A stretch of 64,000 nucleotides of DNA from a virus: positions 21,951 to 85,950 of the IMG/VR virus record IMGVR_UViG_3300051212_000701, one strand, 5' to 3'. A program made the position numbers and the translations under genes. Positions 2,819-57,119 of the stretch are shown one piece after another (position 1 is the first letter of the stretch; every line of letters begins with the position of its first letter). Under the pieces are notes generated by a model. The model was given only the letters and a program-made list of their open reading frames with translations. It did not search any database and was not told the origin of the DNA.

Positions 2819-2842
2819 TTATTTATCTTTTCTCTTTCTACC

Positions 2843-2851
2843 ATTATACCA
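2843..2851 (-). promoter_or_regulatory. extended -10 promoter (TGGTATAAT) for recA
   Basis: Consensus TGnTATAAT in a 34-bp intergenic gap. Confidence 0.65.
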
Positions 2852-2852
2852 T

Positions 2853-3200: not shown

Positions 3201-3477
3201 TAGGTAGCTTTTCATCCATAGCATCATCAAAGTTTGCATTATACTCAAGCTCTTCAGGCTTAGGAAGTCTAAAAATAAAATTTGGTCCAGTCTCGTCGTA
3301 GTCTACGACAAGCTCTTTATCTTTATTGTTTGCCTCAAATAATGTTCTAGTAGGCACACTTACCTGACCAATAGTTTCCAGTATTGAGATCAGAACTTTG
3401 CTTGCCGTAAGCTGTGCCTGAACTTCATTAACATCAAACTCTGGTTCTTGTTGTATAGTAATTTGTTGTTCACTCAT
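3187..3477 (-). CDS. hypothetical acidic protein
   Basis: 96-aa ORF, ATGA-coupled to dnaE. Confidence 0.7.
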   Translation of the reverse strand: MSEQQITIQQEPEFDVNEVQAQLTASKVLISILETIGQVSVPTRTLFEANNKDKELVVDYDETGPNFIFRLPKPEELEYNANFDDAMDEKLPNESE

Positions 3478-6743: not shown

Positions 6744-6764
6744 TAACTCTCCGCCTCTACTCTA

Positions 6765-7436
6765 TTACCAGTCTACGCTGCTGCTAGATGCAGTAGTTTC
6801 GTCTGACTGTCCGCCTTCACCCATGTAAAAGGCTTCTTGTTCTGCATAAGGTACATGTCGTACTGCAGTTTTTTCTAGGTCATACAATTCTAGAGATGAG
6901 AAATCAAATGGTGACTCATCTTTTGCTAGAGGGATAATTGTATAACTTGTGTCTGTCTTAGAACCATTACGCTTGATTCTCCACATCAAGTTTGTAATGC
7001 TTCCCATTTCGCCAGCGTATTCAATTAAGGTAGGTGTAATTGTTTTGCCGCTAGTTCCTTGTGATAGGATTGCAACATACGGATCATTCTTTCCGTCATC
7101 AACTAGTACGTTGATATATAGGCGAGTTCTTGCCTTCCAACCAGCCTTTGGATCCTTGCGATGTTGTTCGTGAGCCCAATCTCGTCCTTCAGTCTCCATT
7201 GTATCAAGAGCCTTGCGACGGTAATCTTTTGGGTTTGTGTGCTCTAGTGCGATAAAACCGCATCCAAGCTTATCATTATAGTTTGGTGAATCTGGATCAA
7301 GCTCCTGTAGGAACCTAATTTTTACGCTTTCGCCGTCTTCAATCTTAAGCCAGCGACCTTTGTTTTCTTCTCCGCCTGAATACACAGGCTTATCAAGTGC
7401 TTTGTTGAGGTCCTTTAGACCCTTTACTATGCTCAT
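6765..7436 (-). CDS. single-stranded DNA-binding protein (gp32-like)
   Basis: WLKIEDGESVKIRFL, IKRNGSKTDTSY and an acidic tail ending in W; lies between primase and polymerase. Confidence 0.75.
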   Translation of the reverse strand: MSIVKGLKDLNKALDKPVYSGGEENKGRWLKIEDGESVKIRFLQELDPDSPNYNDKLGCGFIALEHTNPKDYRRKALDTMETEGRDWAHEQHRKDPKAGWKARTRLYINVLVDDGKNDPYVAILSQGTSGKTITPTLIEYAGEMGSITNLMWRIKRNGSKTDTSYTIIPLAKDESPFDFSSLELYDLEKTAVRHVPYAEQEAFYMGEGGQSDETTASSSSVDW

Positions 7437-39882: not shown

Positions 39883-40779
39883 TTACACCGCTGACTTTAA
39901 ATATCTAATTATTACAATTCCAGAAGCTCCTGAACCTGCAAAAAAAGCTGATTGTTGATTATATGCATTTGATCCTCCGCCTCCACCACCGCCGCCGCCT
40001 GTGTTTGCTACTGCATCTCCAAACCAACCGTTAGGACCTGAAAAAGAATTACTTGTTCCATCATTTAATGCCCATCCGCCTGCTCCGCCTACTGAAGATC
40101 CACCAGGTGCTGAGTAGGTTGTGCTTACACTTCCACCACCGCCGCCGCCTGCATAATATCCATTATAACCTGTAGAGGTTGCTGTAGCCCATGAAATATA
40201 TGCTTGAGTACCTGGTCCGCCTGCGCCACCATTATTTGATCCTCCACCTGAACCACTACCTGCAGCTCCTCCGCCGCCACCATTTGCACTTGTTGTTCCA
40301 CCACCGCCTGAGCCTCCATTATACCCTTGTGCTGGAACTACTGATGGAACATTTCCTGCGCCTGCGCCCGCAGACACTCCCCAGCTTACTCCACCACCGC
40401 CTGAGCCTCCATTTTTATTTCCATTCCAGTTTCCAGTTCCTCCACCTGCTGCAGAAAATGAATTGAATGATGAAGCTGTATCTTGTCCGCCAACCACTAC
40501 TGGATAAGAATTTGGAGTCAATGTAAATGAAGTACTACGAACTCCTCCTGCGCCGCCACCGCCACCGCCGCCTCCGCCTGAGCCGCCGCCGCCAATTACT
40601 AAAACCTCTACATTTAAATTTGAATTGGATAGAAGAAAAGTATCGCTTGATTTAAATGTTCTGTAATAATATGTAGAGTCAGATGTTAATACGCCACCAG
40701 AAATTTCTGCTTGTTTTTTCCCCCAAGCACCAAAAGCTCTTGATGAAAAGCTTGACCATGCTGTTACTATTGGACTCAT
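39883..40779 (-). CDS. glycine-rich adhesin-like protein
   Basis: [13 protein letters not shown]...NTGGGGGG...[10 protein letters not shown]; start MSPIV at 40779 (ATGA overlap). Confidence 0.8.
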
Positions 40780-42404
40780 GCAAATTTTACCATTGATGCA
40801 AAAACATAAAAAGAAGCATCTGCTGTTTTTGTAATGGTAAATGAGTATGCATCTACTGAAGATGCATTTCCAGCCGAAGGAGCTGTTCCATTTTGCCATT
40901 TAACTGTTGTACTTGCACCATCAATTGTTAATGATGTCATATATCTTGGCGTAGCATCATTTGTGTTTAAAAATAATATTGTTGCAGATTGTCCTGCTGA
41001 TAAAATTGAATTTAATGTTGTTGTTGAATCACCTCTAACATTTAATATAAAGTTTGAAGTTGATGGAAGAATATAATACATAAAGCTAGAAGTTTTAAAG
41101 TTTATATTTATTGTCCCGCTTGCTCCAGCACTAACGATTGTTGTGGTTTCTGTTGCTGCAGTTAAATTACTATTAGTAGCCAGTACTCCAGTTGCGCCTG
41201 TAGGACCTGTTGGTCCTGTTGGTCCTGGAACTATTGAGTCTGCCCCAGTTGCTCCTGTGGCACCTGTAGCGCCTGTAGGACCTGTTGGTCCCTCTGTGCC
41301 TGTAGGACCTGTAGCACCTGTTGGTCCAACTATTTGTCCTGAAGAAGACCATGAAGATCCGTCCCAAATATAAAGGTCTCCGTCTGCATCTACTATTCTT
41401 GCATCATTAACTGAGTTTCCTGTAAGTGGTAGTGTTGCAATAGTTGGTGCGCTAGCTTTTAGATTTATAGAAAGTCCTTGTGGGCCAGTTGGACCTACTG
41501 GTCCTGTTGGTCCTGTTGGTCCTGCTAAAGAGCCACCAATTTCTACCCAAACAGAATTGTAGTAAATATACTCTCTTCCTGTTGCAGAATTAAACCAACC
41601 TTGTCCTTCATAAGGATTAGATGGAGGATTTTCTGATGTTATAGAAAATGCTCCTGCTGAACCAGTTGAGCCTGTTGCACCTGTTGGACCTGTAGGACCT
41701 GTTGGTCCTGTTGGTCCAGCAACTGTTGAATCTGCGCCTGTGGCGCCAGTAGGTCCTGTTGGTCCTGGAACTATTGAGTCTGCTCCTGTTGGACCTTCTG
41801 GACCAGCAACCCCTGTGGCACCTGTTGGACCAGTTGCTCCAGTTGCTCCTTGTGGACCTTGAATTGTTCCTACATTTTCCCATTGAGAATTAGCCTGAGA
41901 CCAAACGAATAGGGATCCATTAATTAAATATCCGTCACCAACATTTCCTGTAGGGTGTGCAGATTGTAAACTTGATAAAGATGGATAAGAACCTAATATT
42001 GTTACTGCAGTTCCTGTAGCACCTGTTGAGCCTGTTGCTCCTTGTGGACCTTGTGCACCCGTTGCACCTGTTGGTCCAGCAACTGTTGAATCTGCGCCTG
42101 TGGCGCCAGTAGGTCCTGTTGGTCCTGTAGCTCCAGTTGCACCTTGTGGGCCAGGAACTGTTGAATCTGCGCCTGTGGCGCCAGTAGGTCCTGTTGGTCC
42201 TGTAGCTCCAGTTGCACCTTGTGGGCCAGGAACTGTTGATGCTGCACCTGTAGCTCCAGTTGGACCTGTTGGACCTGTTGGACCTGGATGAGCTGTTAAA
42301 TAATCATCAATGTCTTGAGCCAAATAGCCTAAGTCTCTTGGAATGTCAGGTGACATATCCAAGGTTGGATATCTAAAATTCTTAGGCGTTAAATTGCTAG
42401 GCAT
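40776..42404 (-). CDS. collagen-like fibre protein with C-terminal adaptor domain
   Basis: Four G-X-Y tracts separated by ~45-aa knots; C-terminal KWQNGTAP...DAYSFT. Confidence 0.85.
42081..42239. repeat. perfect 75-bp tandem duplication inside collagen gene
   Basis: ttgaatctgcgcctgtggcgccagtagg... starts at 42086 and again at 42161. Confidence 0.85.
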
Positions 42405-42406
42405 TT

Positions 42407-43480
42407 TTAAATTATACCACTTTCACGGTTCTGAGCACTATGATAGAACCCTAAATTATCATGCAATCTTTGGTCATCGCTATTTAACGATACAGCTATT
42501 TCCCCATGCTTTGAGGCATCATCAAAAAACCCTAGATTATAATTTGCTAAGGCTAGTAGGTCGTGTGGCTTCCATCCCCAAGCATCTGACTCACAAAAGT
42601 AGTCAAGGTACTTTTCTTTTATGTTAAGAGCTAGCTCTGAATATTCTTTTACTTTGTTCCAATCTCTTATATCGTAAAAATATTGTGCAAGATCAACATA
42701 AGGCTCTCTTCTTTGTGGGCATTCAGCAATTGCTTGTCTTAACCAGAACTCTTGGTTTATTGGCTCACATTTTGCAATATATCTCATAGACTCACATCTT
42801 TCTGGTTTCCATTGTGACAATGGCAAAGATAAATGTCTTTTGAATTCTTCTGCTGCTTCTTTATACCTAGCATGGAAAAACAATTCTCTTGCGTAATAAT
42901 GTGCACATCTATCACTTGCTGGATCTTCTTTTGCTGCCATTTCTAAAAGTGGAAGATACTGTCCTCTTGATTTATTATTATCTGGAAGATGATATATTTT
43001 TACATTTATTTTTTGTCTTACTTCATCTATTCCATAATAACTAACCGATTCATGAATAGGAAATTTCCATCTATGTCCATTACGAGCATGCATTCTTAAT
43101 GCATCAAACTCTACACCTGGTTGACCTGCTTCTGTTATATGAGTAACAAGTGTATGTATTGGTCTTGTTACATTAGAACCTTCTAATAGTTCTAATTCTG
43201 ATCTCCAGCCTTCAGATAAAACTTCATCCATATCTAAAGATATGCAGTAATCTATATCTGCTGGAATTAAAGATAAAGCCGCATTTCTAGCATCATCAAA
43301 TCGCCAAGGGGATATAGATATTTGGAATACATTAATTCCTAATGACTTTGCTATTTCTGCGGTTTTATCTGTAGAACCAGTATCTGCAATTAAAAGATAG
43401 TCTGCATCTTTTGCTGAATTGTACCATCTTTCAACAAACTGCTCTTCATTCAGAGCAATTGTGTATACTGCTATTTTCAT
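42407..43480 (-). CDS. glycosyltransferase family 2 with C-terminal TPR repeats
   Basis: [27 protein letters not shown] (DxD), IHE, followed by TPR-like helices ([17 protein letters not shown]). Confidence 0.92.
42411..42419 (-). promoter_or_regulatory. extended -10 (TGGTATAAT), leaderless start
   Basis: 6 nt upstream of ATG 42404; no Shine-Dalgarno. Confidence 0.62.
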
Positions 43481-47544: not shown

Positions 47545-48480
47545 TTAGCTTGACTTTATGTAATATGTAATTATGCAGATACCTGATCCGCCATTGTTTC
47601 CGCCGCCGCCTCCGCCGCCTGAACCAGTGTTTGCTTGTGCATCTGCTCTAGGGGTTCCAACATAGTCACCGTGACCTTGTCCACCACCGTTTGAACCGCC
47701 TCCGCCTGAACCTCTTCCTGAGCCGCCACCACCGCCTGCAAGACCGTATAGCCCTGCGCCTCCACGTCCGCCGACAGAATGTCTTCCTGAGTCATTAGAA
47801 TTAGCCCAACCTGGACCTCCTCCAGATGATCCTTCTGAAGAGTATCTCGAACCACCGAAGTATCCTGAATATCCTCCACGGTTTGGCCAAACATGACCGT
47901 ATTCTCCAGCTCCGTTAGCTCCGCCGCCGCCTCCGCCTGCGCCCCATGAATTTACCCAGTTTCCTTGTCCGCCTCCGCCTGAGCCTCTTCCTGTAATATT
48001 ATCTGCTCCTGGTCCACATGAACCAGACTGTCCGTCTCCTTGTGTTGAACCTCCACCGTATGCAACCATATAGAATGGCTGACCTGAAGTTCCAAATGTT
48101 GAGTTTCCGCCTTGGTTATTACAACTTCCGCCGTTTGCAATACCGATCTGAATTGATGATCCTGTTGCAATTGATGAAATGTCAAGTTTTCTTCTAAGTA
48201 ATTGTCCAGCTCCACCTCCGCCATGATTTGTTGACCCGTTAGAGCATCCACCGCCGCCGCCTCCGCCTACAAGGATTACGTCTATATATGGAGCACTGTT
48301 TACTGGTCTTGTCCAAACTCCACTACTTAAAATAGATACTTGATATGAATTATAAAATCCTGACAAGTTTGCAGCAATTAAAGGAACAGCAACAGATGTT
48401 GCAAGAGTTGTTGTTGCACTTTGTATTTGTGTATCTAGTCCTGGGACATAAATCTGATTAATTGTTCCGTATGTTGCCAT
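47545..48480 (-). CDS. glycine-rich adhesin-like protein
   Basis: SSGVWTRP..IDVILVGGGGGGG...GGSGICIITY. Confidence 0.8.
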   Translation of the reverse strand: MATYGTINQIYVPGLDTQIQSATTTLATSVAVPLIAANLSGFYNSYQVSILSSGVWTRPVNSAPYIDVILVGGGGGGGCSNGSTNHGGGGAGQLLRRKLDISSIATGSSIQIGIANGGSCNNQGGNSTFGTSGQPFYMVAYGGGSTQGDGQSGSCGPGADNITGRGSGGGGQGNWVNSWGAGGGGGGANGAGEYGHVWPNRGGYSGYFGGSRYSSEGSSGGGPGWANSNDSGRHSVGGRGGAGLYGLAGGGGGSGRGSGGGGSNGGGQGHGDYVGTPRADAQANTGSGGGGGGGNNGGSGICIITYYIKSS

Positions 48481-49008: not shown

Positions 49009-50004
49009 TTACGCTTTGATGTACCATTCAATAATGGCAACACCGCTACCTCCTCTATTGCCTACTCCGTTAGAATGGCTGTTTCCTCCGCCGCCTGAAC
49101 CAGTACCATTTCTACCTTCTCCACCAGAGTTATCTGTTGTTGGTGAGCCTCCCGCTCCGCCACCTGCAGAACCTCCACCGCCAGATCCGCCGCCTCCGCC
49201 GCCTCCGCCTGCAAGACCGTATTGCCCTTGTCCTCCACGTCCGCCGCAACCAATCCAAGATGTCCAGCTATGATTCATTCCGTGTCCGCCACCAGATGCT
49301 CCTGGACCATAACCAAATCCTCCTGGATATCCAGATCCTCCACGTCCGTTTTCAAGTGTTGTGTTAATAGCGTTTTGTCCAGCCTCTCCTGCTCCGCCTC
49401 CGCCGCCGCCTGCGCCATACTGATAATCTCCACCAGCTCCTCCACCGCCACCAGAGCCTCCTCCGTTTTGATTTCCCATTCCTGCGCCCATTGAACCGTT
49501 GTTGCCGCTATTACCAGTTCCATATGGATATCCGCCTCCGCCGCCGCCGTAAGCAATAACGTAAAATGGATTTCCGTTTACACCAAATGTTGAGTTACCA
49601 CCATTGTTACCGTTCGAGTTTCCTGAAACTGCTGGTCCACCATTTCCAATAGTTACTGGGATGTTTCCTCCTACTGGAACTGAAGAAATGTCTAACCATC
49701 TTTCAACTAGTTGTCCAGCTCCACCACCGCCTGAACCATTGTGAGACCATGAGTGTCCGCTTCCACCTGAACCACCGCCACCAACAAGAATTAATTTGAT
49801 TGCTGGTCCTGAGTTTGCTGGTCTTGTCCAGTTTCCTGAGCTGTATATTCTAGTTTCTCTAGGAAGGTACATTGAGCTAACTCCGCCAGCCGCAATTGCT
49901 TCTGCTGTGATACCAGCGTTGAGTCCTGCTGTAATAGCTCCATTAATTGTTGAGCTTAGACCAGGCAGGTATATTGACTGCGATGTGTTGGAAACCTGTG
50001 ACAT
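49009..50004 (-). CDS. glycine-rich adhesin-like protein
   Basis: SSGNWTRP..IKLILVGGGGSGG...GGSGVAIIEWY; paralog of 47545..48480. Confidence 0.8.
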   Translation of the reverse strand: MSQVSNTSQSIYLPGLSSTINGAITAGLNAGITAEAIAAGGVSSMYLPRETRIYSSGNWTRPANSGPAIKLILVGGGGSGGSGHSWSHNGSGGGGAGQLVERWLDISSVPVGGNIPVTIGNGGPAVSGNSNGNNGGNSTFGVNGNPFYVIAYGGGGGGYPYGTGNSGNNGSMGAGMGNQNGGGSGGGGGAGGDYQYGAGGGGGGAGEAGQNAINTTLENGRGGSGYPGGFGYGPGASGGGHGMNHSWTSWIGCGGRGGQGQYGLAGGGGGGGGSGGGGSAGGGAGGSPTTDNSGGEGRNGTGSGGGGNSHSNGVGNRGGSGVAIIEWYIKA

Positions 50005-50343: not shown

Positions 50344-50676
50344 TTAGATTACTCCCATGTTCTGATAGATTGTAAAGTTGTTTAATTCATTAGCAACTGC
50401 TGCTACTTGTGTTGCTCCTGCTGCTGCTACCGCAGCTACTTGTGTACTTCCTGCTGATGTAACTGTCGTTACGGCGCCAGTTACCGCAGTAGAGATATCA
50501 TTGAGTTTTGTATTTGTAGCTGCCAAAACATCGTTGACTCCCAAAAGATTTCCCATTGATTCAATTGCCTTAGCTAAGTAAACCAATTCCTGTGCGCCAA
50601 GTGTAGAACCACTAAGGGCTGATACCTTAGTCTTAAAAAGATCTACTTGCGCTGTCAAGCTTGCATAATCTGGCAT
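50344..50676 (-). CDS. helical fibre-base protein
   Basis: MPDYASLTAQVDLFK..., paralog of the N-terminus of 56448..57119. Confidence 0.7.
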   Translation of the reverse strand: MPDYASLTAQVDLFKTKVSALSGSTLGAQELVYLAKAIESMGNLLGVNDVLAATNTKLNDISTAVTGAVTTVTSAGSTQVAAVAAAGATQVAAVANELNNFTIYQNMGVI

Positions 50677-50702: not shown

Positions 50703-50789
50703 TAATCTCTTTGTTACCTGATGTTCCGCCCTATCTGTGTTACACATAATTATACCCCAGTGGCTTTCTAGAAGCCAGCGGGGGCGGGG

Positions 50790-51704
50790 CTATTCTATTG
50801 TCAAATAAGTCAATATTCCAACCAGGACTACTGGTACAACTAAGGCCAGTATAGCCCTATAGTGCTTCTTTATTGGAGTGTCAAAATAGGACTTGGTAAT
50901 AACCAAACATTTGTGGGTCGGAGACAGCATATAGCCTGCATAGTCTATTGCAAAAAATAGAGGCAAATATTCTACTCCATAAACTGTTGCCGATAAAGCT
51001 GTAAAGCCTGCAAACTTTCCACTACTTCCCAAGGCAAAGCTTGCAATAAATCCAGCTACGGCTACGGCAACCAGCAAGTCCTTTTCATGTGCTGAATTTA
51101 CCCAGGCATTAATTTGATCAAAGTTTGCTTTTACAATATTGCTCAATATTATAACAATGCCTACAAAAAGAAGGGTAGTGGCATATGACTTAATTTGTTT
51201 TCTATCTTCTTTCCAGGTGGTCTTTTCAATTGGTCTATCTATATTAATATCTACTTCATCTTCTTTTACAATTTTAAATATATAGTAAAAAATAACAATT
51301 GCTGCCGTCGCTAAGAGAGGCCAAATTCTTCCCATAAACTCTGCATAAGAAATGCTTAATGCTGCCATAGGGACAAGTACTGTTGCTTCTAGTGGAGACC
51401 AAAAGTAGTAGTGATGAGTGGATAGATAGTCTATGATTCCAAATATTTTTTTCTTTGAACTATTTGGAGCAATTGTGTCTAAGGCACCTGCTGATATTGA
51501 TGCTCTTCCATTTACTGGTAATACTCCTGACACCAAGGATATAAGAGCTACAACGGCTCTTTTAGATCTTACTCTTAAAGCAATAAATTTATATACTGGT
51601 AAAAATACTTGAGTTTTTTTAGCCCAGAAAGACAGGGACATAACTATTGATAGCAACAAAAGATACTGCTGATTGTCTGTAATTAAATTAGTTGTTATTT
51701 CCAT
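50790..51704 (-). CDS. DUF401-like multi-pass membrane protein (ion transporter superfamily-like)
   Basis: About 8 hydrophobic segments; GVLPVNGRASISA, HHYYFWSPL, GYMLSPTHKCL...YF. Confidence 0.72.
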   Translation of the reverse strand: MEITTNLITDNQQYLLLLSIVMSLSFWAKKTQVFLPVYKFIALRVRSKRAVVALISLVSGVLPVNGRASISAGALDTIAPNSSKKKIFGIIDYLSTHHYYFWSPLEATVLVPMAALSISYAEFMGRIWPLLATAAIVIFYYIFKIVKEDEVDINIDRPIEKTTWKEDRKQIKSYATTLLFVGIVIILSNIVKANFDQINAWVNSAHEKDLLVAVAVAGFIASFALGSSGKFAGFTALSATVYGVEYLPLFFAIDYAGYMLSPTHKCLVITKSYFDTPIKKHYRAILALVVPVVLVGILTYLTIE

Positions 51705-53349
51705 TTTTTTTCTCTACTACTACTAAGTATAATCCGTTCCACCAATTAGACTCGGACTCTATAGAATTAAGCACTTTCTTACTATATAATATTTTTAATC
51801 CTGAATCAACTATTCCTTTATGAGCACCTTTAACTACATCTGTCCAATTTGCGTCATCAAAAATTAATATGCATGTCTTTGCAAAAGATTTAGAATAATA
51901 CTTGACTGCATTTTTAGTTGATTCAAAATCATGAGGTCCGTCATAAAAAAATAAATCTATTTCAGATATCTCAGACAAATTTACCTTAAACATATCTGAA
52001 TTACAAATATAAACTTTGTTTTCTCCTATATAAGGCTTTATATTATTCTTAAACTCTGCAAGACTATTTGTATTTGGAGTATCCCAATCAGACCTGACTG
52101 CTTTTGGGGCATCTTGCCACATATCCACAAAATAAGCAGACAAGTTATTGTTCATTAGAGCTGATGCTGCTGTAGCTCCTTGATAAGAACCGACCTCTAA
52201 ATACTTAGAAGATGTTTTGGCAAGACTATTGATTAAGGACTGAACTCTGGTTGAAGTTAGTCCTGGTATGTTTATTTCTAAAGTACTATTTACTGAATCT
52301 ACAAGTTCTTTTGCTACTGCTGCAACTTTTTCATTTATATGCTTTCCATATTTAGCTGCTACTATTTTATCGCAATATCCACAATCCCAGCAGTCAAATT
52401 TGCAGTTTTTAATTTTATTTCTCCATATTGCTATGGGCTTTTCAACTAGATTTGTTTCTTCAATAAAATCATTAAAAGTATCAAAAAGAATATCTTCTTT
52501 ATTAGCATACCTTGTAATTATATCCATTGTCTCTTTTAACCTTGTATGCGATTCTCTGCCGTGCATTTTAATTACATCAATACCTAGGTCATCTATAAAC
52601 TCTTGCCAGTCCTGCCGCCAAGGCGGGAAGTTAGCTGTCTTTAAAGATACAGCAAAGTCTTCATGGTCCCATTTTGGGCAAGAAACTCTGCTTATCGGAT
52701 CATTAAAATACTGAGGTCCTGTAGTTCTAGTATTATTGAACTGATAGTGCTCATCCATCATTATACAGCCTCCGTAGCACCCTTCATTAGCCAATAAGGA
52801 CAACTTGACGCCAAATTGCTGCTTAGCTTTTTTGAAGCGCTTTAGCTTCTCGTGGTCTCTCATAAGGTCTCTATCTAAGTTGATATAGTCAAAGCCAGCC
52901 TTGGCCAACTTTTCAATATCTCTAGGCTCAGACACATTTCTTAATATTGTATTCTTTACAAAAAGATCTGGAAAAGCTTTTTTAATTTGCCCTGTTGCCA
53001 TCCAATGGGTATGTGGTATTGTAGCGGACCTTATGCCCGCATTGTAGACAGGCTCAAAGCTTGTAATAAATAAATCTAAATTCTCTTGAGAAGGCCTGAC
53101 CTCTATATTATTAAAAACAGCAGAAGCTGGTATTCCAGTTTCTGCCTGAACATATAGAGCCATATTGATTAAATAATCGTAATCTTCTTCTTTGTTTACA
53201 AACACGTCTCCCATGGCGTCTTGTGTAAAAGGAGGAATTCTGCAAGTAAAATAAAAATCATATATATACTGTTTTTGTTTTTTTAAAAAACTTACAAAAT
53301 CAGCAAACTGATTTTCATTTAGTTTAGGATTTAAAGGAACGCTAAACAT
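51688..53349 (-). CDS. peptidase U32-family Fe-S protein fused to class I SAM O-methyltransferase (Methyltransf_24-like)
   Basis: GFDYINLDRDLMRD, LLANEGCYGGC..H..SC, IKMHGRE, CKFDCWDCGYC; then YLEVGSYQGAT, FFYDGPHD, IFDDANW. Confidence 0.82.
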   Translation of the reverse strand: MFSVPLNPKLNENQFADFVSFLKKQKQYIYDFYFTCRIPPFTQDAMGDVFVNKEEDYDYLINMALYVQAETGIPASAVFNNIEVRPSQENLDLFITSFEPVYNAGIRSATIPHTHWMATGQIKKAFPDLFVKNTILRNVSEPRDIEKLAKAGFDYINLDRDLMRDHEKLKRFKKAKQQFGVKLSLLANEGCYGGCIMMDEHYQFNNTRTTGPQYFNDPISRVSCPKWDHEDFAVSLKTANFPPWRQDWQEFIDDLGIDVIKMHGRESHTRLKETMDIITRYANKEDILFDTFNDFIEETNLVEKPIAIWRNKIKNCKFDCWDCGYCDKIVAAKYGKHINEKVAAVAKELVDSVNSTLEINIPGLTSTRVQSLINSLAKTSSKYLEVGSYQGATAASALMNNNLSAYFVDMWQDAPKAVRSDWDTPNTNSLAEFKNNIKPYIGENKVYICNSDMFKVNLSEISEIDLFFYDGPHDFESTKNAVKYYSKSFAKTCILIFDDANWTDVVKGAHKGIVDSGLKILYSKKVLNSIESESNWWNGLYLVVVEKKNGNNN

Positions 53350-53354
53350 TACTC

Positions 53355-53906
53355 CTACAGATCTACTTTATAAGTGGTGTCGTCTGGATTAAGCATTATG
53401 CCAAATCTTTTGCTTAATAGTATACCACTTTCTACCCAGTCCTTGCAAGAATCTATCTCTTTTATTATTTCGCCTTTTCTTTTTAATAAATCATATTCAC
53501 TTTCGTATTTGGCAAAACGTAAGCATACTGGAGTTGATTTTGACATCTTTATTTTATTATAATAATATTTGTCCAGCATAAAATGCATTAACGCTTTATT
53601 AATAAGATAAGCGTTATATTTATCTTCTTCTGTTAAAACGTATTTATATTTATCTTTATATGGCTCTAATCTTGATTTGTCTATTTGATCATACGATGGA
53701 GTATTCTCTCTAACAGATATTTCTCCTTTATATTTATTTGCAAACTTCCAGGCTAAAGCTACCTGCTCTGGAACAACAATACAAGTTGGCATTACTATAT
53801 ATGGCAAAAGACTTTCTTCTACGCATCCGACCAAAATTCCAGAACAATCACCTATTTCTTTAAAATATGGCTTATTGTCTTCTGGGTTGTATAAGAAATA
53901 AATCAT
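53355..53906 (-). CDS. hypothetical protein
   Basis: 183-aa ORF, ATGA-coupled to the upstream coiled-coil gene. Confidence 0.7.
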   Translation of the reverse strand: MIYFLYNPEDNKPYFKEIGDCSGILVGCVEESLLPYIVMPTCIVVPEQVALAWKFANKYKGEISVRENTPSYDQIDKSRLEPYKDKYKYVLTEEDKYNAYLINKALMHFMLDKYYYNKIKMSKSTPVCLRFAKYESEYDLLKRKGEIIKEIDSCKDWVESGILLSKRFGIMLNPDDTTYKVDL

Positions 53907-54634
53907 TCTACTTCTTCCCAGAGCCCCTGTGATGACTCAGGTAGTTCTAGTCTTTTCTTTACCTCAACCTGCAATTTTTCTAGATGGGTGTTGGTCTCTA
54001 TTGCTTTTTGTACTGCATGATCTAAAGCTATCTCCCTTATTTGGGGAGGCAGTTGATCAATGGCCTCCATGTTACCGCTATTTACTCTTCCATAAAACAT
54101 TAAATCATAAGCTGCTTGAGCACCTAGCCTTATTCCCCAAAGCTCTGCCTCTAAACGCTCTTCTTCTTCATGGTTTCCAATTATGTCCATAATTCTTCTA
54201 CCATCAGGAAGCAAACCCTCTTCAGATTCATTAAATCTATCTATAAGCATCATATGCTTATCTCTTTCTTCATAAAGAAGGCTTATAGTGATTTTATGAT
54301 TATTTAAAACTCTTTCTTTTTCTTTAATAGTTAATTCATGTAATTTAATTTTTGCAGGAGATGTTTCTTGAGAAATAAGTTCTTTTTCTAGCTCTATTTC
54401 TAATCTAACTCTTTCTATTTTTAATTCTTGATCTGTTATAAGATTTTCTCTAGATCCTAACTCTAGAAGCAGCTGTCTAAGTTTTCCAAACGGGGTAAAT
54501 TGTGCTCCTGCAACAAAGTTGTCTATTTTAAATACGGGAACTCCCCAGTGTCTATTTGCAGCATACAGCAATATGTCTTGCTGTGATTTTGTGTAGCCTG
54601 AAACGTCCGACGTTAAATCGTTGATATATCTCAT
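53903..54634 (-). CDS. coiled-coil protein
   Basis: FVAGAQFTPFGKLRQLLLEL, long E/K/L heptads, YGRVNSGNMEAI. Confidence 0.72.
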   Translation of the reverse strand: MRYINDLTSDVSGYTKSQQDILLYAANRHWGVPVFKIDNFVAGAQFTPFGKLRQLLLELGSRENLITDQELKIERVRLEIELEKELISQETSPAKIKLHELTIKEKERVLNNHKITISLLYEERDKHMMLIDRFNESEEGLLPDGRRIMDIIGNHEEEERLEAELWGIRLGAQAAYDLMFYGRVNSGNMEAIDQLPPQIREIALDHAVQKAIETNTHLEKLQVEVKKRLELPESSQGLWEEVE

Positions 54635-54649
54635 TATATTGCCTATCTA

Positions 54650-55567
54650 CTAAGATCTATATGCAGAGTACGCAGAACTTCTTCCTGGAACTCCCTTTGA
54701 TTGCATTGAGCCGCCGCCTTCATATCCTGAATCGGTAGCATAATTAAAGCGCCAAGCACGGTTGTTTTGCTCTCCATTATACATTCCTACCATGTATTGA
54801 TGTGCTTGTCCCATATCAAAATTTTCTTCTCCAGAGTTTCCAATTGGTTTGCTTACGCTACCAACATTCGACTCTGTAGCAACACTAAATCTTCTTAAAT
54901 TGTATCCTCCAGAATAGCTTCCTTCATTTCCCGCATACAAGTAGTTTAATTTAGATGAAATGCCCTTTTGTTGTCCGTGAGCTCCATTACAAGGAGAACA
55001 CGCTTGAGCCTCTGTTGCAAATGTTAATTTAACTCCATTATCGTCACCATAATGAAAACCTTTTGTTTCGTGATATATTGCAGACATTGTTTGACCACTA
55101 TTTCCGCAAGCTTTACCAATGCTGCTGAGCCAGGTTTGTGTTGAAAATTGAAATCTCATAATTGCATTGTTTCCGTCTGCTGGAGCCCCATAAGCTCTAG
55201 TTTGTTCTTGATGCATAATCGTTCCAGCATTTCCAACGTTGTAAGGTGCGGAAGGACCTATCTGAGAGGTTTCTGTTCTCATGCTATATCTATTTGTTTG
55301 GCTTGAATTACCGCCTACTGTATTATTAGCTTTAAGAACATAGGCAAAAGTGTCATCACACATTCCGCCTGGGTATGCAGTAGAGTTATTTAACTGACCA
55401 CCTAGATCTACAGTTGTATCTGTTGAGTGAGCTGTTCTATTTACATTAGTCCACGGAGAGCTATTTCTATAACCAGCAAGGATATAACCCGTAGTGATTA
55501 CTTGTCTCAACAAGAATGACTTTGGCCCGCCTGAGCCACCCATATATCTATTTTGTGGAAATGGCAT
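54650..55567 (-). CDS. Kelch-like beta-propeller protein
   Basis: ~45-aa repeats: GYILAGY...HSTDT, YLYAG...FSVATES, YMVGMY...FNYATDS. Confidence 0.72.
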   Translation of the reverse strand: MPFPQNRYMGGSGGPKSFLLRQVITTGYILAGYRNSSPWTNVNRTAHSTDTTVDLGGQLNNSTAYPGGMCDDTFAYVLKANNTVGGNSSQTNRYSMRTETSQIGPSAPYNVGNAGTIMHQEQTRAYGAPADGNNAIMRFQFSTQTWLSSIGKACGNSGQTMSAIYHETKGFHYGDDNGVKLTFATEAQACSPCNGAHGQQKGISSKLNYLYAGNEGSYSGGYNLRRFSVATESNVGSVSKPIGNSGEENFDMGQAHQYMVGMYNGEQNNRAWRFNYATDSGYEGGGSMQSKGVPGRSSAYSAYRS

Positions 55568-56074
55568 TTATTCTCCTGGATTATATTTTAATGTAATTGA
55601 ATCAATGCCTAAATTTGGCCATGTTATATTAAACGGGTCTTCCTGATTAGTAACATTTCTTAATGCTGCTCTATATTCAATAATTTTTTCTTTATCTAAA
55701 TCAGAAAATTCATTGAATACGTCAGCAAGAATTAAATAATCAGTGCTAGAAATTGCATTATTTCTATGATATCTTACATCAGCCCACTTTGCTTCCGCAA
55801 CATATTTTTTTTCTTCTGGAGTTAGCTCAAGAACATTATACTTGCCAACAACAACTCCTAGTTCTTCGTCTAACTCTCTTACAAATTCTAACTTTTGATT
55901 TTTGATGTCATATTCTGGCATAGATTGAGCATCTTCAACAACATACCAATCGTCAAAACCTTCTAAGTGTGATGGCAAAATAGGTGAAGGAAAATGTGTA
56001 GAAGGATACATCTCTCTTAGCTCTTGCTCTGTAGCAAGTTTAATTAACTTATTCATTATGATTTGTGCGTACAT
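55568..56074 (-). CDS. tail fibre assembly chaperone-like protein
   Basis: WADVRYHRNNAISSTDY...YRAALRNVTNQ..PFNITWP; paralog of 46625..47068. Confidence 0.8.
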   Translation of the reverse strand: MYAQIIMNKLIKLATEQELREMYPSTHFPSPILPSHLEGFDDWYVVEDAQSMPEYDIKNQKLEFVRELDEELGVVVGKYNVLELTPEEKKYVAEAKWADVRYHRNNAISSTDYLILADVFNEFSDLDKEKIIEYRAALRNVTNQEDPFNITWPNLGIDSITLKYNPGE

Positions 56075-56448
56075 TATCTTGAGTCCTTCATGGTTAGTGT
56101 GCCTCTCCAGTTTGCTCCGTTATCGTATGTAACGAATGTTATAACATCTATTCCGCCGCTTGTTAAAGCTGGTGCTGATGCTCCTGGGTATTTTGCATTT
56201 GTAAATGTTGTTGTATAGCTTCCTCCGCCTGTAAGTTGCAAGGAGAAGCTTACAACTCCAGTCGACGGGGTGTTAATAATATTAAATGTTGTGGTTCCAT
56301 TAAGAGCGCAAGTAAAATCGTTTGACAAAGACAAGTCTAAATTTACTGTGCCGCTTGTTGTTCCTAAGTCTAGTCTTCCAGTTCTATATCCTGAAAGAGT
56401 AAGAGTTTGCGGAAGAATTGCTGCTTGAAGATCGCTTAAGGTTGCCAT
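56074..56448 (-). CDS. fibre adaptor-domain protein
   Basis: KYPGASAPALTSGGIDVITFVTYDNGANWRG; start MATLS at 56448. Confidence 0.72.
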   Translation of the reverse strand: MATLSDLQAAILPQTLTLSGYRTGRLDLGTTSGTVNLDLSLSNDFTCALNGTTTFNIINTPSTGVVSFSLQLTGGGSYTTTFTNAKYPGASAPALTSGGIDVITFVTYDNGANWRGTLTMKDSR

Positions 56449-57119
56449 TATGCTAGTACCCACCCTCTTGTTGCATTAACATAAACTAGTTTTACTGCTG
56501 CATTTTTTATGTTTACAACTAAATTTTCTTGCAGTCCTTGTATTCTTTCACCATTTCTTGCAAGCGTAAATGCTGGATTTAAAGTGTTTACAGTTCCGTT
56601 TGTTGCATCTACAGCTTCTATGGTAAATCCTAAAGTAGGACCTAGAGGTAGAGTCAATGTAATTCCTGCAGTTGTTACAAAAACTCTTTGCCCGTTAGTT
56701 AATGTTATACCAGCATCTGTTGTAATCCAAGAAGATGGTACGTTAGATACTGATGTTTGTAAGGCTGATACTGTAGACTGAAGTGTTGTATATTGTGTAG
56801 AGTTTGTAGAAACAAACCCTTCAATATTAGTTACTTTGCCTTCAAGAACAGATATATCAGCTTCTGCATCTGTTAATCTTTGTCCATTTGTTCCTGTATT
56901 AAATGCTGTTATTGCAGTATCTCTAGCTGAGTTTATTGTAGCTACTCCGTCTACTACAGCATTGTTGATGTCTGCAACACCTAGAGTATTTCCTATTGCA
57001 TTTAATGCCGCCCCAACTAATTGCAAGTCATTTGGGGTCAAAGTGCCACTCGTCATAAGAGCTGATGCGGCAGTTTTAAACTGTGTTATCTGCGAAGTTA
57101 ATGATGAGTAATCTGGCAT
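56448..57119 (-). CDS. fibre protein (coiled coil plus beta-rich C-terminus)
   Basis: MPDYSSLTSQITQFK..., heptads, ITLTLP...TLARNGERIQG...LVYVNATRGW. Confidence 0.72.
   Translation of the reverse strand: MPDYSSLTSQITQFKTAASALMTSGTLTPNDLQLVGAALNAIGNTLGVADINNAVVDGVATINSARDTAITAFNTGTNGQRLTDAEADISVLEGKVTNIEGFVSTNSTQYTTLQSTVSALQTSVSNVPSSWITTDAGITLTNGQRVFVTTAGITLTLPLGPTLGFTIEAVDATNGTVNTLNPAFTLARNGERIQGLQENLVVNIKNAAVKLVYVNATRGWVLA

What the first reader, a model, noticed from the sequence alone, without database searches (positions are those of the whole stretch)
50790..55567. Five-gene cassette inside the fibre locus: beta-propeller, coiled coil, unknown protein, U32 Fe-S/O-methyltransferase fusion, DUF401-like membrane protein
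Seen: five tightly packed, co-oriented genes (overlaps or gaps of 16 bp or less). They directly follow a fibre adaptor/chaperone pair and end at a structured intergenic region. Enzymatic and membrane genes interrupt an otherwise structural 27-kb block. Known: U32-family members are mostly not proteases; RlhA, TrhP and UbiU/V are Fe-S, O2-independent hydroxylation factors. Inference: this may be an undescribed phage modification or secretion module. The propeller sits in the 'fibre tip' slot of its cassette and could be the modified or displayed product, with the coiled-coil and 183-aa proteins as scaffold/adaptor, the U32-MTase as tailoring enzyme and the membrane protein supplying or exporting a substrate. 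An alternative is a host-envelope modification or superinfection-exclusion module.
Basis: partly seen in the sequence, partly recalled or inferred. Interest (0 to 1): 0.88.

Follow-up and report, generated by a model that had tools for sequence, protein, structure and literature searches.

The report
Conserved phage propeller and Fe-S methyltransferase cassette
Five tightly packed phage genes, including a Kelch propeller and an iron-sulfur-type barrel enzyme fused to an O-methyltransferase, form an uncharacterised cassette that recurs beside tail-fibre or virion structural genes in unrelated phages and probably adds a hydroxyl and then a methyl group to an unknown target.

Summary
Five co-oriented minus-strand genes lie at 55567-50790, with spacings of 0, 15, -4, 5 and -17 bp, followed by a 113-bp gap.

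Protein identities:
- The 305-aa protein is a six-bladed Kelch propeller (Z 30).
- The 553-aa protein is a TIM barrel whose best solved match is the U32 protein Mk0906 (Z 16.5). It has seven invariant cysteines and is fused to a cation-dependent-type O-methyltransferase (Z 16.9).
- The 304-aa protein is a DUF401-like multi-pass membrane protein.
- The 243-aa and 183-aa proteins are phage-only orphans.

"U32" holds by fold and motif order only. Pfam PF01136 and profile comparisons do not detect it.

The cassette is conserved well beyond this phage's relatives:
- 57/57 IMG/VR loci with enough flank carry the propeller and the 243-aa gene.
- 123 cultured T4-like cyanophage records carry it as T4-GC351-354.
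- Ralstonia jumbo phage RP31 carries the propeller-like, coiled-coil, U32-like and permease genes without the methyltransferase.

The window phage itself looks actinophage-like (WhiB; Streptomyces-phage-like portal).

Best reading (0.35): a hydroxylate-then-O-methylate tailoring module acting on, or through, the co-inherited propeller set. The substrate is unknown. I found no paper on it. First-stage readers of this scan flagged the same cassette on other genomes.

The parts
54650..55567 (-). 305-aa six-bladed Kelch-type beta-propeller (phrog_1417; homologue of the C-terminal part of cyanophage T4-GC351, the 'sericin 1 precursor-like protein')
   Evidence: AF2 on a 35-row alignment gave pLDDT 89.1. 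The VIA wide search gave KLHL17 Kelch domain 6hrl_B at Z 30.0, rmsd 2.4, 271 of 287 residues aligned. BFVD gave the S-RIM12 'sericin 1-like' protein at E 9.6e-25. tblastn found it in 123 phage records, all cyanophages. No Pfam Kelch hit.
53903..54634 (-). 243-aa phage-only helical ('coiled-coil') protein (phrog_1409; homologue of cyanophage T4-GC353 and Ralstonia phage RP31 ORF137)
   Evidence: phrog_1409 at 6.3e-29. RP31 ORF137 matches phrog_1409 at 9.5e-67. tblastn hits P-HM2, S-ShM2 and S-CAM4. Present in 57 of 57 IMG/VR loci with enough flank. No Pfam, NCBIfam, PDB-profile or Atlas lead. I did not test the coiled-coil character.
53355..53906 (-). 183-aa phage-only protein, a distant homologue of cyanophage T4-GC352 (phrog_1604)
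   Evidence: hhalign of A5 against P-HM2 PHM2_099 gave probability 96.6%, E 4.7e-10, 160 columns. Found in 43 of 57 IMG/VR loci by tblastn. No Pfam, PHROG, NCBIfam or PDB hit.
52315..53349 (-). N-terminal domain (residues 1-345) of the 553-aa protein. It is a TIM barrel with a U32-like fold. Invariant cysteines are C191, C195 and C224, plus a C-terminal C316-x3-C320-x2-C323-x2-C326 cluster.
   Evidence: AF2 pLDDT 92.7. 5d88 U32 Mk0906 at Z 16.5, rmsd 3.1, 222 of 247 aligned, model residues 1-271. Seven invariant Cys across 72 sequences. The motifs NEGCxGxC ... SC ... KMHGR run in the same order as HGAxCxxxxGRC ... C..C ... KIEGR in canonical U32. PF01136 is not matched.
51688..52314 (-). C-terminal domain (residues 346-553) of the 553-aa protein: a class I SAM-dependent O-methyltransferase of the cation-dependent type
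   Evidence: Pfam Methyltransf_24 at 3.2e-9, 38.1 bits against a cut-off of 26.3. Folds: TomG 5n5d Z 16.9, Rv0187 5x7f Z 16.9, MycF Z 16.6, TrmR 5zw3 Z 15.2-15.8. Invariant LEvGs..G.T, YDGPHD, DDAN and WWNG motifs in 13 sequences.
50790..51704 (-). 304-aa DUF401-like multi-pass membrane protein (phrog_14035). Its start overlaps the 553-aa gene by 17 bases.
   Evidence: Pfam DUF401 at 1.5e-11, 44.8 bits against a cut-off of 24, in two stretches. TIGR00529 scores 48.6 bits, far below its cut-off of 378.4. phrog_14035 at 4.4e-76. RP31 ORF135 matches phrog_14035 at 5.2e-147. GRAVY 0.59 and at least 5 strongly hydrophobic 19-residue segments. Present in 56 of 62 IMG/VR loci with enough downstream flank.
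50749..50789 (-). GC-rich hairpin directly after the stop codon, followed by TATAAT. Likely end of the cassette's transcript and start of the next unit.
   Evidence: Sequence and fold. It was not picked up by the consensus terminator scan. Weak evidence.
55568..56074 (-). Context only: 168-aa tail-fibre assembly chaperone abutting the propeller gene (0-bp gap)
   Evidence: Pfam Phage_tail_APC at 5.7e-9. phrog_4912 'tail fiber assembly' at 4.4e-14.

Best explanation
This is a horizontally mobile phage tailoring cassette.

Its catalytic core is the 553-aa protein. The N-terminal half is a very divergent U32-like TIM barrel with seven invariant cysteines. These are predicted to hold one or two Fe-S (or Fe-S plus Zn) centres. 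By analogy with UbiU/V, TrhP and RlhA, this half would hydroxylate an aromatic or heteroaromatic carbon without O2. The fused cation-dependent-type O-methyltransferase would then cap the new hydroxyl, turning C-H into C-OH and then C-OCH3.

The enzyme is always inherited together with a Kelch propeller and one or two phage-only helical proteins, so I take these to be its target or its target-recognition parts. The most likely target is a fibre-associated virion accessory, either the propeller set itself or something it binds. The translationally coupled DUF401-like permease is an optional helper. It is absent at the cyanophage loci I inspected, and may move a small anionic co-substrate or product.

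Shown here: the folds, the invariant residues, the fusion and the synteny. Inferred: Fe-S binding, hydroxylase chemistry, the order of the two reactions and the substrate.
For: 1. Fold. The N-domain's best solved match among 48,161 chains is the U32 protein Mk0906 (Z 16.5, rmsd 3.1, 222 of 247 residues). The next TIM barrel is MTHFR (Z 13.4, rmsd 5.7) (confirmed).
2. Residues. Seven cysteines are invariant in 72 sequences down to 21% identity, as are E189, E200/H201 and K261-x2-G264-R265. The order strand-GC..C, C, strand-K..GR mirrors canonical U32.
3. Methyltransferase. The C-domain passes the Pfam threshold. Its top fold matches are nearly all cation-dependent O-methyltransferases that act on freshly made hydroxyls (TomG, SafC, COMT, MycF, TrmR). 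The SAM motif and acidic motifs are invariant.
4. Precedent. Characterised U32 proteins are Fe-S proteins required for O2-independent, prephenate-dependent hydroxylations (passages of PMC10990095). In B. subtilis the U32 pair TrhP1/2 sits in one operon with the O-methyltransferase TrmR, and TrhO-TrmR fusions exist (passages of PMC6599085).
5. Cellular homologues. These sit beside other hydroxyl-capping or tailoring genes. In Smithella and Syntrophaceae: CysD plus CysN/APS-kinase (PAPS synthesis), two GNATs and TauE. In Halarcobacter: APH-family kinases. In a Campylobacterales MAG: a radical-SAM/SPASM maturase.
6. Co-inheritance.
- The propeller and the 243-aa gene are in 57 of 57 IMG/VR loci, the 183-aa gene in 43 of 57, and the permease in 56 of 62. 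The full gene order holds in 40 of 44.
- 123 cyanophage records have the propeller and 126 records have the enzyme, with the same organism tallies of 77/38/8.
- T4-GC351-354 are adjacent in P-HM2 and Syn19.
- RP31 has ORF139 (propeller-like), ORF137 (phrog_1409), ORF136 (U32-like) and ORF135 (phrog_14035).
7. Position. The cassette lies beside fibre or virion genes on all three backbones. Cyanophage propellers carry an N-terminal domain shared with neighbouring virion or fibre-like families (phrog_5906, 6005, 1325).
8. Charge. Both enzyme domains are acidic (pI 5.96 and 5.46). This is a weak hint against a nucleic-acid substrate.
Against: - The U32 link does not reach sequence significance. 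There is no PF01136 hit even at E 10. PF01136 finds the canonical U32 genes in four of the five host genomes searched, but not the homologues of this domain. hhalign against UbiU and UbiV gave nothing, and against a 7-sequence U32 profile gave only probability 9.8%.
- The cysteine spacing (C-x3-C-x28-C plus C-x3-C-x2-C-x2-C) differs from the canonical C-x6-C-x15-C-x3-C. Metal content is untested, and three cysteines in a TIM barrel could bind Zn instead.
- No U32 protein has yet shown hydroxylase activity in vitro (PMC10990095).
- Nothing links the enzyme physically to the propeller or the helical proteins. The synteny counts come from related, non-independent phages.
- The permease is unexplained by a protein substrate.
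- The cellular contexts and the closest methyltransferase folds fit small molecules at least as well.
- S-ShM2 tolerates about 5.7 kb of inserted genes between GC353 and GC354.
Confidence: 0.35

Rival explanations
1. RNA (or DNA) base modification. The fusion would be a phage version of TrhP plus TrmR. It would make 5-hydroxy- and then 5-methoxy-pyrimidine in tRNA, rRNA or phage nucleic acid, to retune decoding or evade defence. The neighbouring genes would be unrelated fibre accessories.
For: Two of the three characterised U32 functions act on RNA (TrhP, RlhA). The trmR-trhP2-trhP1 operon and TrhO-TrmR fusions are exact precedents for hydroxylase plus O-methyltransferase (passages of PMC6599085). 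TrmR structures are among the methyltransferase matches (5zw3 Z 15.2-15.8, 8k1f Z 14.0), within about 1-2 Z of the top. A universal substrate would explain the spread across phages of cyanobacteria, Ralstonia and a probable actinobacterial host.
Against: There is no sequence-level match to TrhP or RlhA (PF01136) or to TrmR-type families. I found no extra RNA-binding domain, and the region after the barrel is only a Cys4 cluster. Both domains are acidic. The window holds no tRNA gene. This reading does not explain the strict co-inheritance with the propeller and the helical proteins, or the placement among late structural genes.
Confidence: 0.2
2. Small-molecule, lipid or envelope-precursor tailoring at the membrane. 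The enzyme would hydroxylate and methylate a quinone-like, phenolic or sugar-linked metabolite. The permease would supply or export it, and the result would change host physiology or surface. This is an auxiliary-metabolic or exclusion function.
For: The permease gene overlaps the enzyme gene by 17 bp in the window and by 8 bp in RP31, and is present in 56 of 62 loci. UbiU/V act on membrane prenyl-phenols whose hydroxyls are then O-methylated (PMC10990095). The closest methyltransferase folds are catechol and sugar O-methyltransferases of natural-product pathways. Cellular homologues lie in metabolite-type clusters with PAPS synthesis, GNATs, an ATP-grasp enzyme, TauE and APH kinases.
Against: The cyanophage loci I inspected keep the enzyme but have no adjacent permease. 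From recalled knowledge, the three host groups use different quinones, so no single lipid target is obvious. The propeller and the helical proteins are left unexplained.
Confidence: 0.25
3. No joint function. The three non-enzymatic genes would be ordinary fibre or virion accessories. The enzyme and permease would be an unrelated moron that has hitch-hiked in a recombination-prone fibre region.
For: The locus downstream of fibre genes is variable. S-SM1 has other genes there, and S-ShM2 has a 5.7-kb insertion inside the cassette. The cyanophage propeller has a fibre-like shared N-terminal domain. The stand-alone cellular homologues I inspected have no propeller or 243-aa neighbour.
Against: The same partners recur on three unrelated backbones: Kyanoviridae, the PhiKZ-related RP31, and an actinophage-like 110-kb phage. 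Among cultured phages the tallies match (123 against 126 records). Hitch-hiking alone would not keep them together.
Confidence: 0.12
4. The N-domain is a peptidase, in line with the historical U32 'collagenase' label. It would process the phage's collagen-like or glycine-rich fibres.
For: The window encodes several collagen-like and glycine-rich fibre proteins. The fold's name-giving family was first described as collagenases (recalled).
Against: The characterised U32 members named in the passages I read act in hydroxylations, not proteolysis (PMC10990095). Seven invariant cysteines and a fused O-methyltransferase fit redox tailoring, not proteolysis.
Confidence: 0.03

Closest known systems
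U32 family Fe-S proteins of O2-independent hydroxylation (UbiU/UbiV, TrhP, RlhA; Pfam PF01136; solved member Mk0906, PDB 5d88)
   Same: The TIM-barrel fold matches (Z 16.5, 222 of 247 residues). A strand followed by a Gly-Cys ... Cys loop, a further Cys, and a later strand ending K-x-x-G-R appear in the same order. Homologues occur in anaerobes.
   Different: It is not detected by PF01136 or by profile comparison. The Cys spacing is C-x3-C-x28-C rather than C-x6-C-x15-C-x3-C. There is an extra C-x3-C-x2-C-x2-C cluster after the barrel. No Peptidase_U32_C domain was found. Here it is fused to a methyltransferase and is phage-borne.
B. subtilis trmR-trhP2-trhP1 (yrrMNO) mo5U34 pathway and eukaryotic TrhO-TrmR fusions
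   Same: A hydroxylase is paired or fused with a cation-dependent SAM O-methyltransferase that caps the new hydroxyl (PMC6599085 passages). TrmR is a structural match (Z 15.2-15.8).
   Different: There is no sequence-level orthology to TrhP or TrmR. The protein is acidic. It is embedded with a propeller, helical proteins and a permease among late phage genes.
T4-like cyanophage gene clusters T4-GC351-354 ('sericin 1 precursor-like protein' plus three hypothetical proteins)
   Same: These are direct homologues of four of the five genes: GC351 is the propeller, GC352 the 183-aa family, GC353 the 243-aa family and GC354 the enzyme. They too lie after fibre genes.
   Different: The order of GC352 and GC353 is swapped. 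The propeller carries a roughly 150-aa fibre-like N-terminal domain. No DUF401-like gene is adjacent. All are annotated only as hypothetical, and the T4-GC numbers do not occur in the main text of Sullivan et al. 2010.
Cation-dependent class I O-methyltransferases (TomG, SafC, COMT/CCoAOMT, MycF/SpnH; Pfam Methyltransf_24/3)
   Same: The fold matches at Z 16-17, the Pfam threshold is passed, and the SAM and acidic motifs are invariant.
   Different: It is fused behind a Fe-S-type barrel. The substrate class (catechol, sugar or nucleobase) cannot be told from the fold ties.
DUF401 / TIGR00529 membrane proteins
   Same: It passes the Pfam DUF401 threshold and is a multi-pass membrane protein.
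   Different: It is shorter (304 aa against a 393-position model), matched in only two stretches, and far below the TIGR00529 cut-off. The family itself has no known function. My 15-paper DUF401 search showed no functional study in the listing.

Membership tests
Peptidase_U32 / U32 Fe-S hydroxylase family | Match to Pfam PF01136 at the gathering threshold | tested here: not met
   No PF01136 hit at E<=0.1. None in the whole virus record at E<=10, while 10 of 14 control genomes ring. In G001-G004 PF01136 finds the canonical U32 genes but not the homologues of this domain.
Peptidase_U32 / U32 Fe-S hydroxylase family | TIM-barrel fold of the solved U32 domain (Mk0906) | tested here: met
   5d88_A at Z 16.5, rmsd 3.1, 222 of 247 residues, model residues 1-271. 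It is the top TIM barrel among 48,161 chains. The next is MTHFR at Z 13.4, rmsd 5.7.
Peptidase_U32 / U32 Fe-S hydroxylase family | Four-cysteine 4Fe-4S motif (C-x6-C-x15-C-x3/4-C) | tested here: not met
   Canonical spacing is seen in three Smithella, Syntrophaceae and Halarcobacter U32 proteins (for example C170/177/193/197), and E. coli UbiU has its variant C169/176/193/232. This family instead has invariant C191-x3-C195-x28-C224 plus C316-x3-C320-x2-C323-x2-C326.
Peptidase_U32 / U32 Fe-S hydroxylase family | Profile-level homology and shared strand motifs (HGA.C / K-I-E-G-R) | tested here: inconclusive
   hhalign against a 7-sequence U32 profile gave a colinear 161-column alignment but only probability 9.8%, E 0.0032. 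Against UbiU and UbiV alone it gave nothing. NEGC..C and KMHGR resemble HGA.C..C and KIEGR by eye only.
Peptidase_U32 / U32 Fe-S hydroxylase family | Fe-S binding and prephenate-dependent hydroxylation | not testable with these tools
   This needs biochemistry.
Cation-dependent class I SAM O-methyltransferase (Methyltransf_24) | Pfam PF13578 above threshold and a Rossmann O-methyltransferase fold | tested here: met
   38.1 bits against a cut-off of 26.3. All 120 listed homologues carry PF13578. TomG and Rv0187 at Z 16.9.
Cation-dependent class I SAM O-methyltransferase (Methyltransf_24) | SAM motif I and metal-binding acidic residues conserved | tested here: inconclusive
   LEvGs..G.T, YDGPHD and DDAN are invariant in 13 sequences. 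My assignment of these as SAM or metal ligands is by recalled analogy, not by a residue-level structural alignment.
TrmR (tRNA ho5U34 O-methyltransferase) | Sequence membership in the TrmR/Methyltransf_3 families | tested here: not met
   No such Pfam or NCBIfam hit at E<=0.1. There is structural similarity only (Z 15.2-15.8).
Kelch beta-propeller | Six-bladed Kelch propeller fold | tested here: met
   6hrl_B at Z 30.0 with 271 of 287 aligned, KLHL12 at Z 28.9, Keap1 at Z 28.7.
Kelch beta-propeller | Pfam Kelch repeat match | tested here: not met
   0 Pfam families at E<=0.1. One Atlas neighbour cluster carries a Kelch family in 22% of its members.
DUF401 / TIGR00529 | Family HMM above the curated cut-off | tested here: inconclusive
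   Pfam DUF401 is met (44.8 bits against 24) but covers only two stretches. TIGR00529 scores 48.6 bits against a cut-off of 378.4.

The most novel reading that the evidence does not exclude
A phage-borne, O2-independent (prephenate-type) Fe-S hydroxylase fused to an O-methyltransferase matures a Kelch-propeller receptor-binding tip. It would do so post-translationally, with the help of two dedicated helical proteins, for example by making a methoxylated or quinone-like aromatic residue. This would be the first protein substrate for the U32 superfamily and a new kind of virion-protein maturation. The cassette would be traded between phages of cyanobacteria, Betaproteobacteria and probably Actinobacteria.
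Probability: 0.12. Interest if true: 0.85.

Novelty: new variant of a known kind. Interest (0 to 1): 0.6.

Why it matters
The enzyme family is large. There are 1,966 clusters at 90% identity. It sits in 123 cultured marine cyanophage genome records, including isolates that can be grown, yet every member I saw is annotated only as 'hypothetical'.

If the fold-based reading is right, phages of oxygenic phototrophs, of a plant pathogen and probably of freshwater Actinobacteria carry an O2-independent hydroxylase. Cellular members of that superfamily still lack an in-vitro assay and a known electron acceptor (PMC10990095).

A compact, single-chain hydroxylase plus methyltransferase with fixed partner proteins would be a tractable model for U32 chemistry. 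It could also reveal a new modification of virion proteins, RNA or host metabolites that matters for host recognition.

Tried and rejected
- Foldseek against the PDB with the whole 553-aa model gave only generic TIM barrels (pyruvate kinase, aldolase, MTHFR, BHMT) and methyltransferases. The U32 match appeared only with the VIA wide search.
- phmmer and profile searches of solved structures gave nothing useful for the 553-aa protein, A1 (only designed TIM barrels at E>=0.05), A4, A5 or A6.
- The Pfam scan of 10 stand-alone or distant N-domain homologues found no family above threshold in any of the 10.
- The ESM Atlas held no structure for the propeller or the 243-aa protein. Its feature hits were only unnamed viral clusters.
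- Complex prediction on the N-domain (A1, residues 1-345) with the 243-aa protein (A4) returned 'no answer' (score 0.00 against a mark of 0.32). This is neither for nor against binding.
- P0131, a 579-aa protein with the barrel at its C-terminus, is not a fusion with the 243-aa protein.
- RP31 ORF138 is not detectably related to the 183-aa family.
- The 259-aa Smithella neighbour is not related to the 243-aa family.
- IMG/VR scans with two stand-alone homologues (P0213, P0135) found nothing.
- The listing of cluster members gave only unnamed metagenomic sources for 10 distant homologues.
- Literature searches found no paper on this cassette:
  - DUF401.
  - U32/phage/hydroxylation/prephenate.
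  - sericin + cyanophage, 0 papers.
  - Locus tags PHM2_098-101, Syn19_046 and SShM2_051, 0 papers.
  - 'peptidase U32' + cyanophage, 0 papers.
- The T4-GC351-354 labels do not occur in the main text of PMC3037559.
- Supplementary tables were closed and may bear on virion association. These are Table S8 of PMC3037559 (S-SM1 virion proteome; S-SM1 lacks the cassette anyway) and Table S3 of PMC5468394 (32 RP31 virion proteins; ORF135-139 are not named in the main text).
- I considered the reading that the propeller is the tip of the preceding fibre cassette and rejected it. That cassette already has a 129-aa fibre-C-terminal-like gene and a chaperone.

Full report
**What is there**

- 55567..54650 (305 aa)
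- 54634..53903 (243 aa)
- 53906..53355 (183 aa)
- 53349..51688 (553 aa)
- 51704..50790 (304 aa)

One search gives the spacings. There are 0 bp after the upstream 168-aa gene, then 15, -4, 5 and -17 bp, then 113 bp before the next gene.

The upstream gene is a tail-fibre assembly chaperone (Pfam Phage_tail_APC, 5.7e-9). The 223-aa and 129-aa genes before it match tail or fibre PHROGs.

The 113-bp spacer starts with a GC-rich hairpin followed by TATAAT. The fold of the whole spacer is not exceptional (z -1.29), and the consensus scan did not call a terminator there.

The cassette (GC 0.34-0.37) is less GC-rich than the fibre genes on either side (0.40-0.455).

The surrounding block is mostly fibres, glycine-rich proteins, portal, protease and capsid-like genes. 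It also holds a glycosyltransferase.

**The phage**

The window is bases 21951-85950 of an 85,950-base IMG/VR record that CheckV rates 79% complete.

Its portal is 54-58% identical to those of 120-134-kb Streptomyces phages. The record also encodes a WhiB-family protein outside the window (E 4.2e-13, above the cut-off; among the 14 control genomes only Corynebacterium rings). The host is therefore probably an actinobacterium. This is an inference.

**The 553-aa protein**

Family searches:
- Pfam sees only Methyltransf_24 in residues 384-499 (38.1 bits, cut-off 26.3).
- PHROGs sees phrog_1458 over the full length (6.4e-165), and phrog_36869 over residues 2-332.

Family size:
- The family is large: 1,966 clusters at 90% identity at E<=1e-3 among 7,692 candidates. 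All 120 listed carry PF13578.
- The N-terminal 345 residues alone find 292 representatives at 50% clustering (170 at E<=1e-10). Many are stand-alone proteins of 320-450 aa.
- Ten of these were scanned, and none had a Pfam family above threshold.

Conserved residues. In a 72-sequence alignment reaching 21% identity, seven cysteines are invariant: C191, C195, C224, C316, C320, C323 and C326.

Structure:
- AlphaFold2 on that alignment gave pLDDT 92.7.
- An exhaustive structural comparison against 48,161 chains put the U32 protein Mk0906 (5d88: Z 16.5, rmsd 3.1, 222 of 247 residues, model residues 1-271) as the best match to the N-domain. The next TIM barrel is MTHFR at Z 13.4, rmsd 5.7. One search confirms this.
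- Plain Foldseek had shown only generic barrels.
- The C-domain matches cation-dependent O-methyltransferases: TomG and Rv0187 at Z 16.9, LiOMT 16.8, MycF 16.6, SafC 16.2, and TrmR 15.2-15.8.
- Its SAM-type and acidic motifs are invariant in 13 sequences.

**Is it a U32 protein?**

By sequence, no:
- PF01136 finds nothing in the whole record even at E 10.
- In four bacterial genomes that carry both kinds of gene, PF01136 finds the canonical U32 genes but not the homologues of this domain.
- hhalign against E. coli UbiU and UbiV finds nothing.
- hhalign against a seven-sequence U32 profile gives a colinear 161-column alignment (residues 2-179 against 3-164), but only 9.8% probability.

By eye, the motif order is the same. 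Canonical U32 reads strand-HGA.C-x6-C ... C-x3-C ... strand-KIEGR. This family reads strand-NEGC-x3-C ... SC ... strand-KMHGR, with an added C-x3-C-x2-C-x2-C after the barrel.

I therefore call it U32-like: a remote branch outside the Pfam model, with a different and larger cysteine set.

What the literature says. Passages of PMC10990095 state that:
- U32 proteins are Fe-S proteins;
- UbiU/V, TrhP and RlhA act in O2-independent hydroxylations with prephenate as the oxygen donor;
- most of the twelve subfamilies are uncharacterised;
- no direct in-vitro activity has been shown.

Passages of PMC6599085 show two things. B. subtilis trhP1/trhP2 share an operon with the O-methyltransferase trmR. 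TrhO-TrmR fusions exist in some eukaryotes. These are the precedents for a 'hydroxylate, then methylate' reading.

**The other four proteins**

The 305-aa protein:
- It folds (pLDDT 89.1) into a six-bladed Kelch propeller (KLHL17 at Z 30.0, 271 of 287 residues).
- Its closest viral model is the cyanophage 'sericin 1-like' protein (E 9.6e-25). A 292-aa protein of Ralstonia phage RP12 is also matched (E 2.4e-10, TM 0.71/0.74).

The 304-aa protein:
- It passes the DUF401 threshold in two stretches.
- It is hydrophobic, with at least five strong segments.

The 243-aa protein (phrog_1409) and the 183-aa protein have no Pfam, NCBIfam, PDB or Atlas lead. I did not test the coiled-coil character of the 243-aa protein.

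**Co-occurrence**

IMG/VR relatives. Of 80 loci fetched with the enzyme (55-86% identity):
- the propeller and the 243-aa gene are upstream in 57 of the 57 loci with at least 5.6 kb of flank;
- the 183-aa gene is found in 43 of those 57;
- the permease is downstream in 56 of the 62 loci with at least 4 kb of flank;
- the full gene order holds in 40 of the 44 loci with both flanks.

These loci are related to one another, so they are not independent.

Cultured phages:
- The enzyme is in 126 records: 77 'Synechococcus', 38 'Cyanophage', 8 'Prochlorococcus' and 3 Ralstonia.
- The propeller is in 123 records with the same 77/38/8 tallies.

T4-like cyanophages:
- In P-HM2 and Syn19 the homologues are the adjacent T4-GC351 (propeller), 352, 353 (243-aa family) and 354 (enzyme), placed after fibre genes.
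- GC352 is homologous to the 183-aa family (hhalign probability 96.6%). All four soluble genes are therefore shared, with two of them swapped in order.
- S-ShM2 has about 5.7 kb of auxiliary genes inserted between GC353 and GC354.
- S-SM1 has other genes at this locus.

Ralstonia phage RP31. This is a PhiKZ-related jumbo phage according to the abstract of PMC5468394. Its genes run in this order:
- ORF139, 292 aa;
- ORF138;
- ORF137, matching phrog_1409 at 9.5e-67;
- ORF136, the barrel only, 39.6% identical over residues 2-331;
- ORF135, matching phrog_14035 at 5.2e-147.

ORF139 aligns weakly over its full length to the propeller profile (E 4e-4, probability 34%, 239 columns). It has the same length as the RP12 protein matched by structure.

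The cassette, with or without the methyltransferase and the permease, therefore sits on three unrelated phage backbones.

**Cellular relatives**

A motif scan of 185,579 species genomes gave 75 stretches, and 6 of them encode a homologue:
- two Smithella MAGs;
- a Syntrophaceae MAG;
- a Halarcobacter chromosome;
- a Campylobacterales MAG;
- a Cloacimonadota contig that looks phage-like (dCTP deaminase, DNA ligase).

Their gene neighbourhoods:
- Smithella and Syntrophaceae share this order: GNAT, U32-like, a 259-aa unknown, GNAT, TauE, CysD-like, then a CysN/APS-kinase fusion. An ATP-grasp gene lies nearby.
- Halarcobacter has a two-component system, then the U32-like gene, then APH-family kinases (one above the Pfam cut-off, one below).
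- The Campylobacterales MAG has a TPR protein, an unknown, the U32-like gene, DUF6445 and a radical-SAM/SPASM gene.

None of the neighbours I scanned or compared resembled the propeller or the 243-aa protein (one search tested one).

The recurring theme is enzymes that cap or use hydroxyl groups: methyl, sulfate donor, phosphate and acetyl. A peptide maturase appears once. This fits a hydroxylating tailoring enzyme, but it is guilt by association.

**Virion link**

Syn19 GC351 has about 150 extra N-terminal residues. These match phrog_5906 (1.1e-16), a 'virion structural protein' family (phrog_6005, 4.4e-9), and phrog_1325 and phrog_2415.

Those last two are the families of the genes that follow the cassette in P-HM2 and S-CAM4. 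phrog_5906 also matches the C-terminus of a fibre protein in this window.

A shared N-terminal module with different C-terminal heads is what interchangeable fibre or tip proteins look like. Display of the propeller on cyanophage virions is therefore plausible, but unproven. The window's own propeller lacks that module.

**Weighing the readings**

The enzymology (Fe-S barrel hydroxylates, fused methyltransferase caps) is the best-supported step. I give it roughly even odds.

For the substrate I see three live options:
- One of the co-inherited proteins, or something the propeller binds. Favoured by the strict co-inheritance on three backbones, the late or structural placement, the fibre-like N-terminus of cyanophage propellers, the acidic enzyme (pI 5.8) and one peptide-maturase context.
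- RNA or DNA bases. Favoured by the known U32 functions and the TrhP/TrmR precedent. Weakened by the lack of any sequence-level kinship, RNA-binding domain or basic surface, and by the unexplained partners.
- A membrane-associated small molecule. Favoured by the translationally coupled permease, the catechol- or sugar-type methyltransferase fold ties and the metabolite-like cellular contexts. Weakened by the permease being absent at the cyanophage loci I inspected and by the unexplained propeller.

I commit to the first at 0.35. The others stand at 0.20 and 0.25, 'no joint function' at 0.12 and a peptidase at 0.03.

**Novelty**

- I found no paper on the cassette.
- The T4-GC labels are absent from the main text of the paper that defined the T4-GC clusters.
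- The supplementary tables that might show virion association were closed.
- First-stage readers of this scan noted the same cassette on seven other stretches of other genomes. Those notes are unchecked and added no data.
- The parts belong to known kinds: Kelch, U32-like barrel, O-methyltransferase and DUF401.
- What is new is a divergent U32-like subfamily with an extra Cys4 cluster, its fusion to a methyltransferase, and its fixed partnership with a propeller and phage-only proteins.

I rate it a new variant of a known kind, with moderate-to-high interest. It is abundant, present in culturable cyanophages, and directly testable.

Noticed in passing
G000:C1:9573-9746 (outside the window; locus L173): The record encodes a WhiB-family protein (E 4.2e-13, above the Pfam cut-off). 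Together with a portal 54-58% identical to those of 120-134-kb Streptomyces phages, this points to an actinobacterial host, despite the window's GC content of 32-46%.
   Followed up: partly
window 56448-57119 and 50344-50676: Two genes begin with nearly the same N-terminus (MPDYSSLTSQI... and MPDYASLTAQV...). Each heads a small fibre cassette of adaptor, tip and small proteins. This suggests several interchangeable fibre modules that share one attachment domain.
   Followed up: no
window 49009-50004, 47545-48480, 39883-40899: Three paralogous, extremely glycine-rich proteins (331, 311 and 338 aa; phrog_2295). They have long poly-Gly runs, and the opposite strand is open over much of their length.
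   Followed up: no
window 42407-43480: A glycosyltransferase gene (phrog_13126, 1.4e-117) lies between two collagen-like fibre genes. It is a second enzymatic gene inside the 'structural' block.
   Followed up: no
L164 (Smithella, G002:C9:13000-32999) and L165 (Syntrophaceae): A conserved chromosomal cluster with this order: GNAT, U32-like barrel, 259-aa unknown, GNAT, TauE, CysD-like, CysN/APS-kinase fusion, plus an ATP-grasp gene. It looks like an uncharacterised sulfation-type tailoring pathway that uses the same barrel family.
   Followed up: partly
L002 (S-ShM2) 1236-6982: Four 2OG-Fe(II) oxygenase genes, petE and gnd are inserted between the cyanophage homologues of the 243-aa gene and the enzyme gene. 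S-CAM4 also has 2OG oxygenases on both sides of the cassette.
   Followed up: no
L117 (Cloacimonadota MAG contig, 3937 b): The barrel (370 aa) and the start of the methyltransferase appear as separate ORFs (370 aa, then 85 aa) next to dCTP-deaminase-like and DNA-ligase genes. This is probably a phage contig binned into a MAG, with a split or frameshifted fusion.
   Followed up: no
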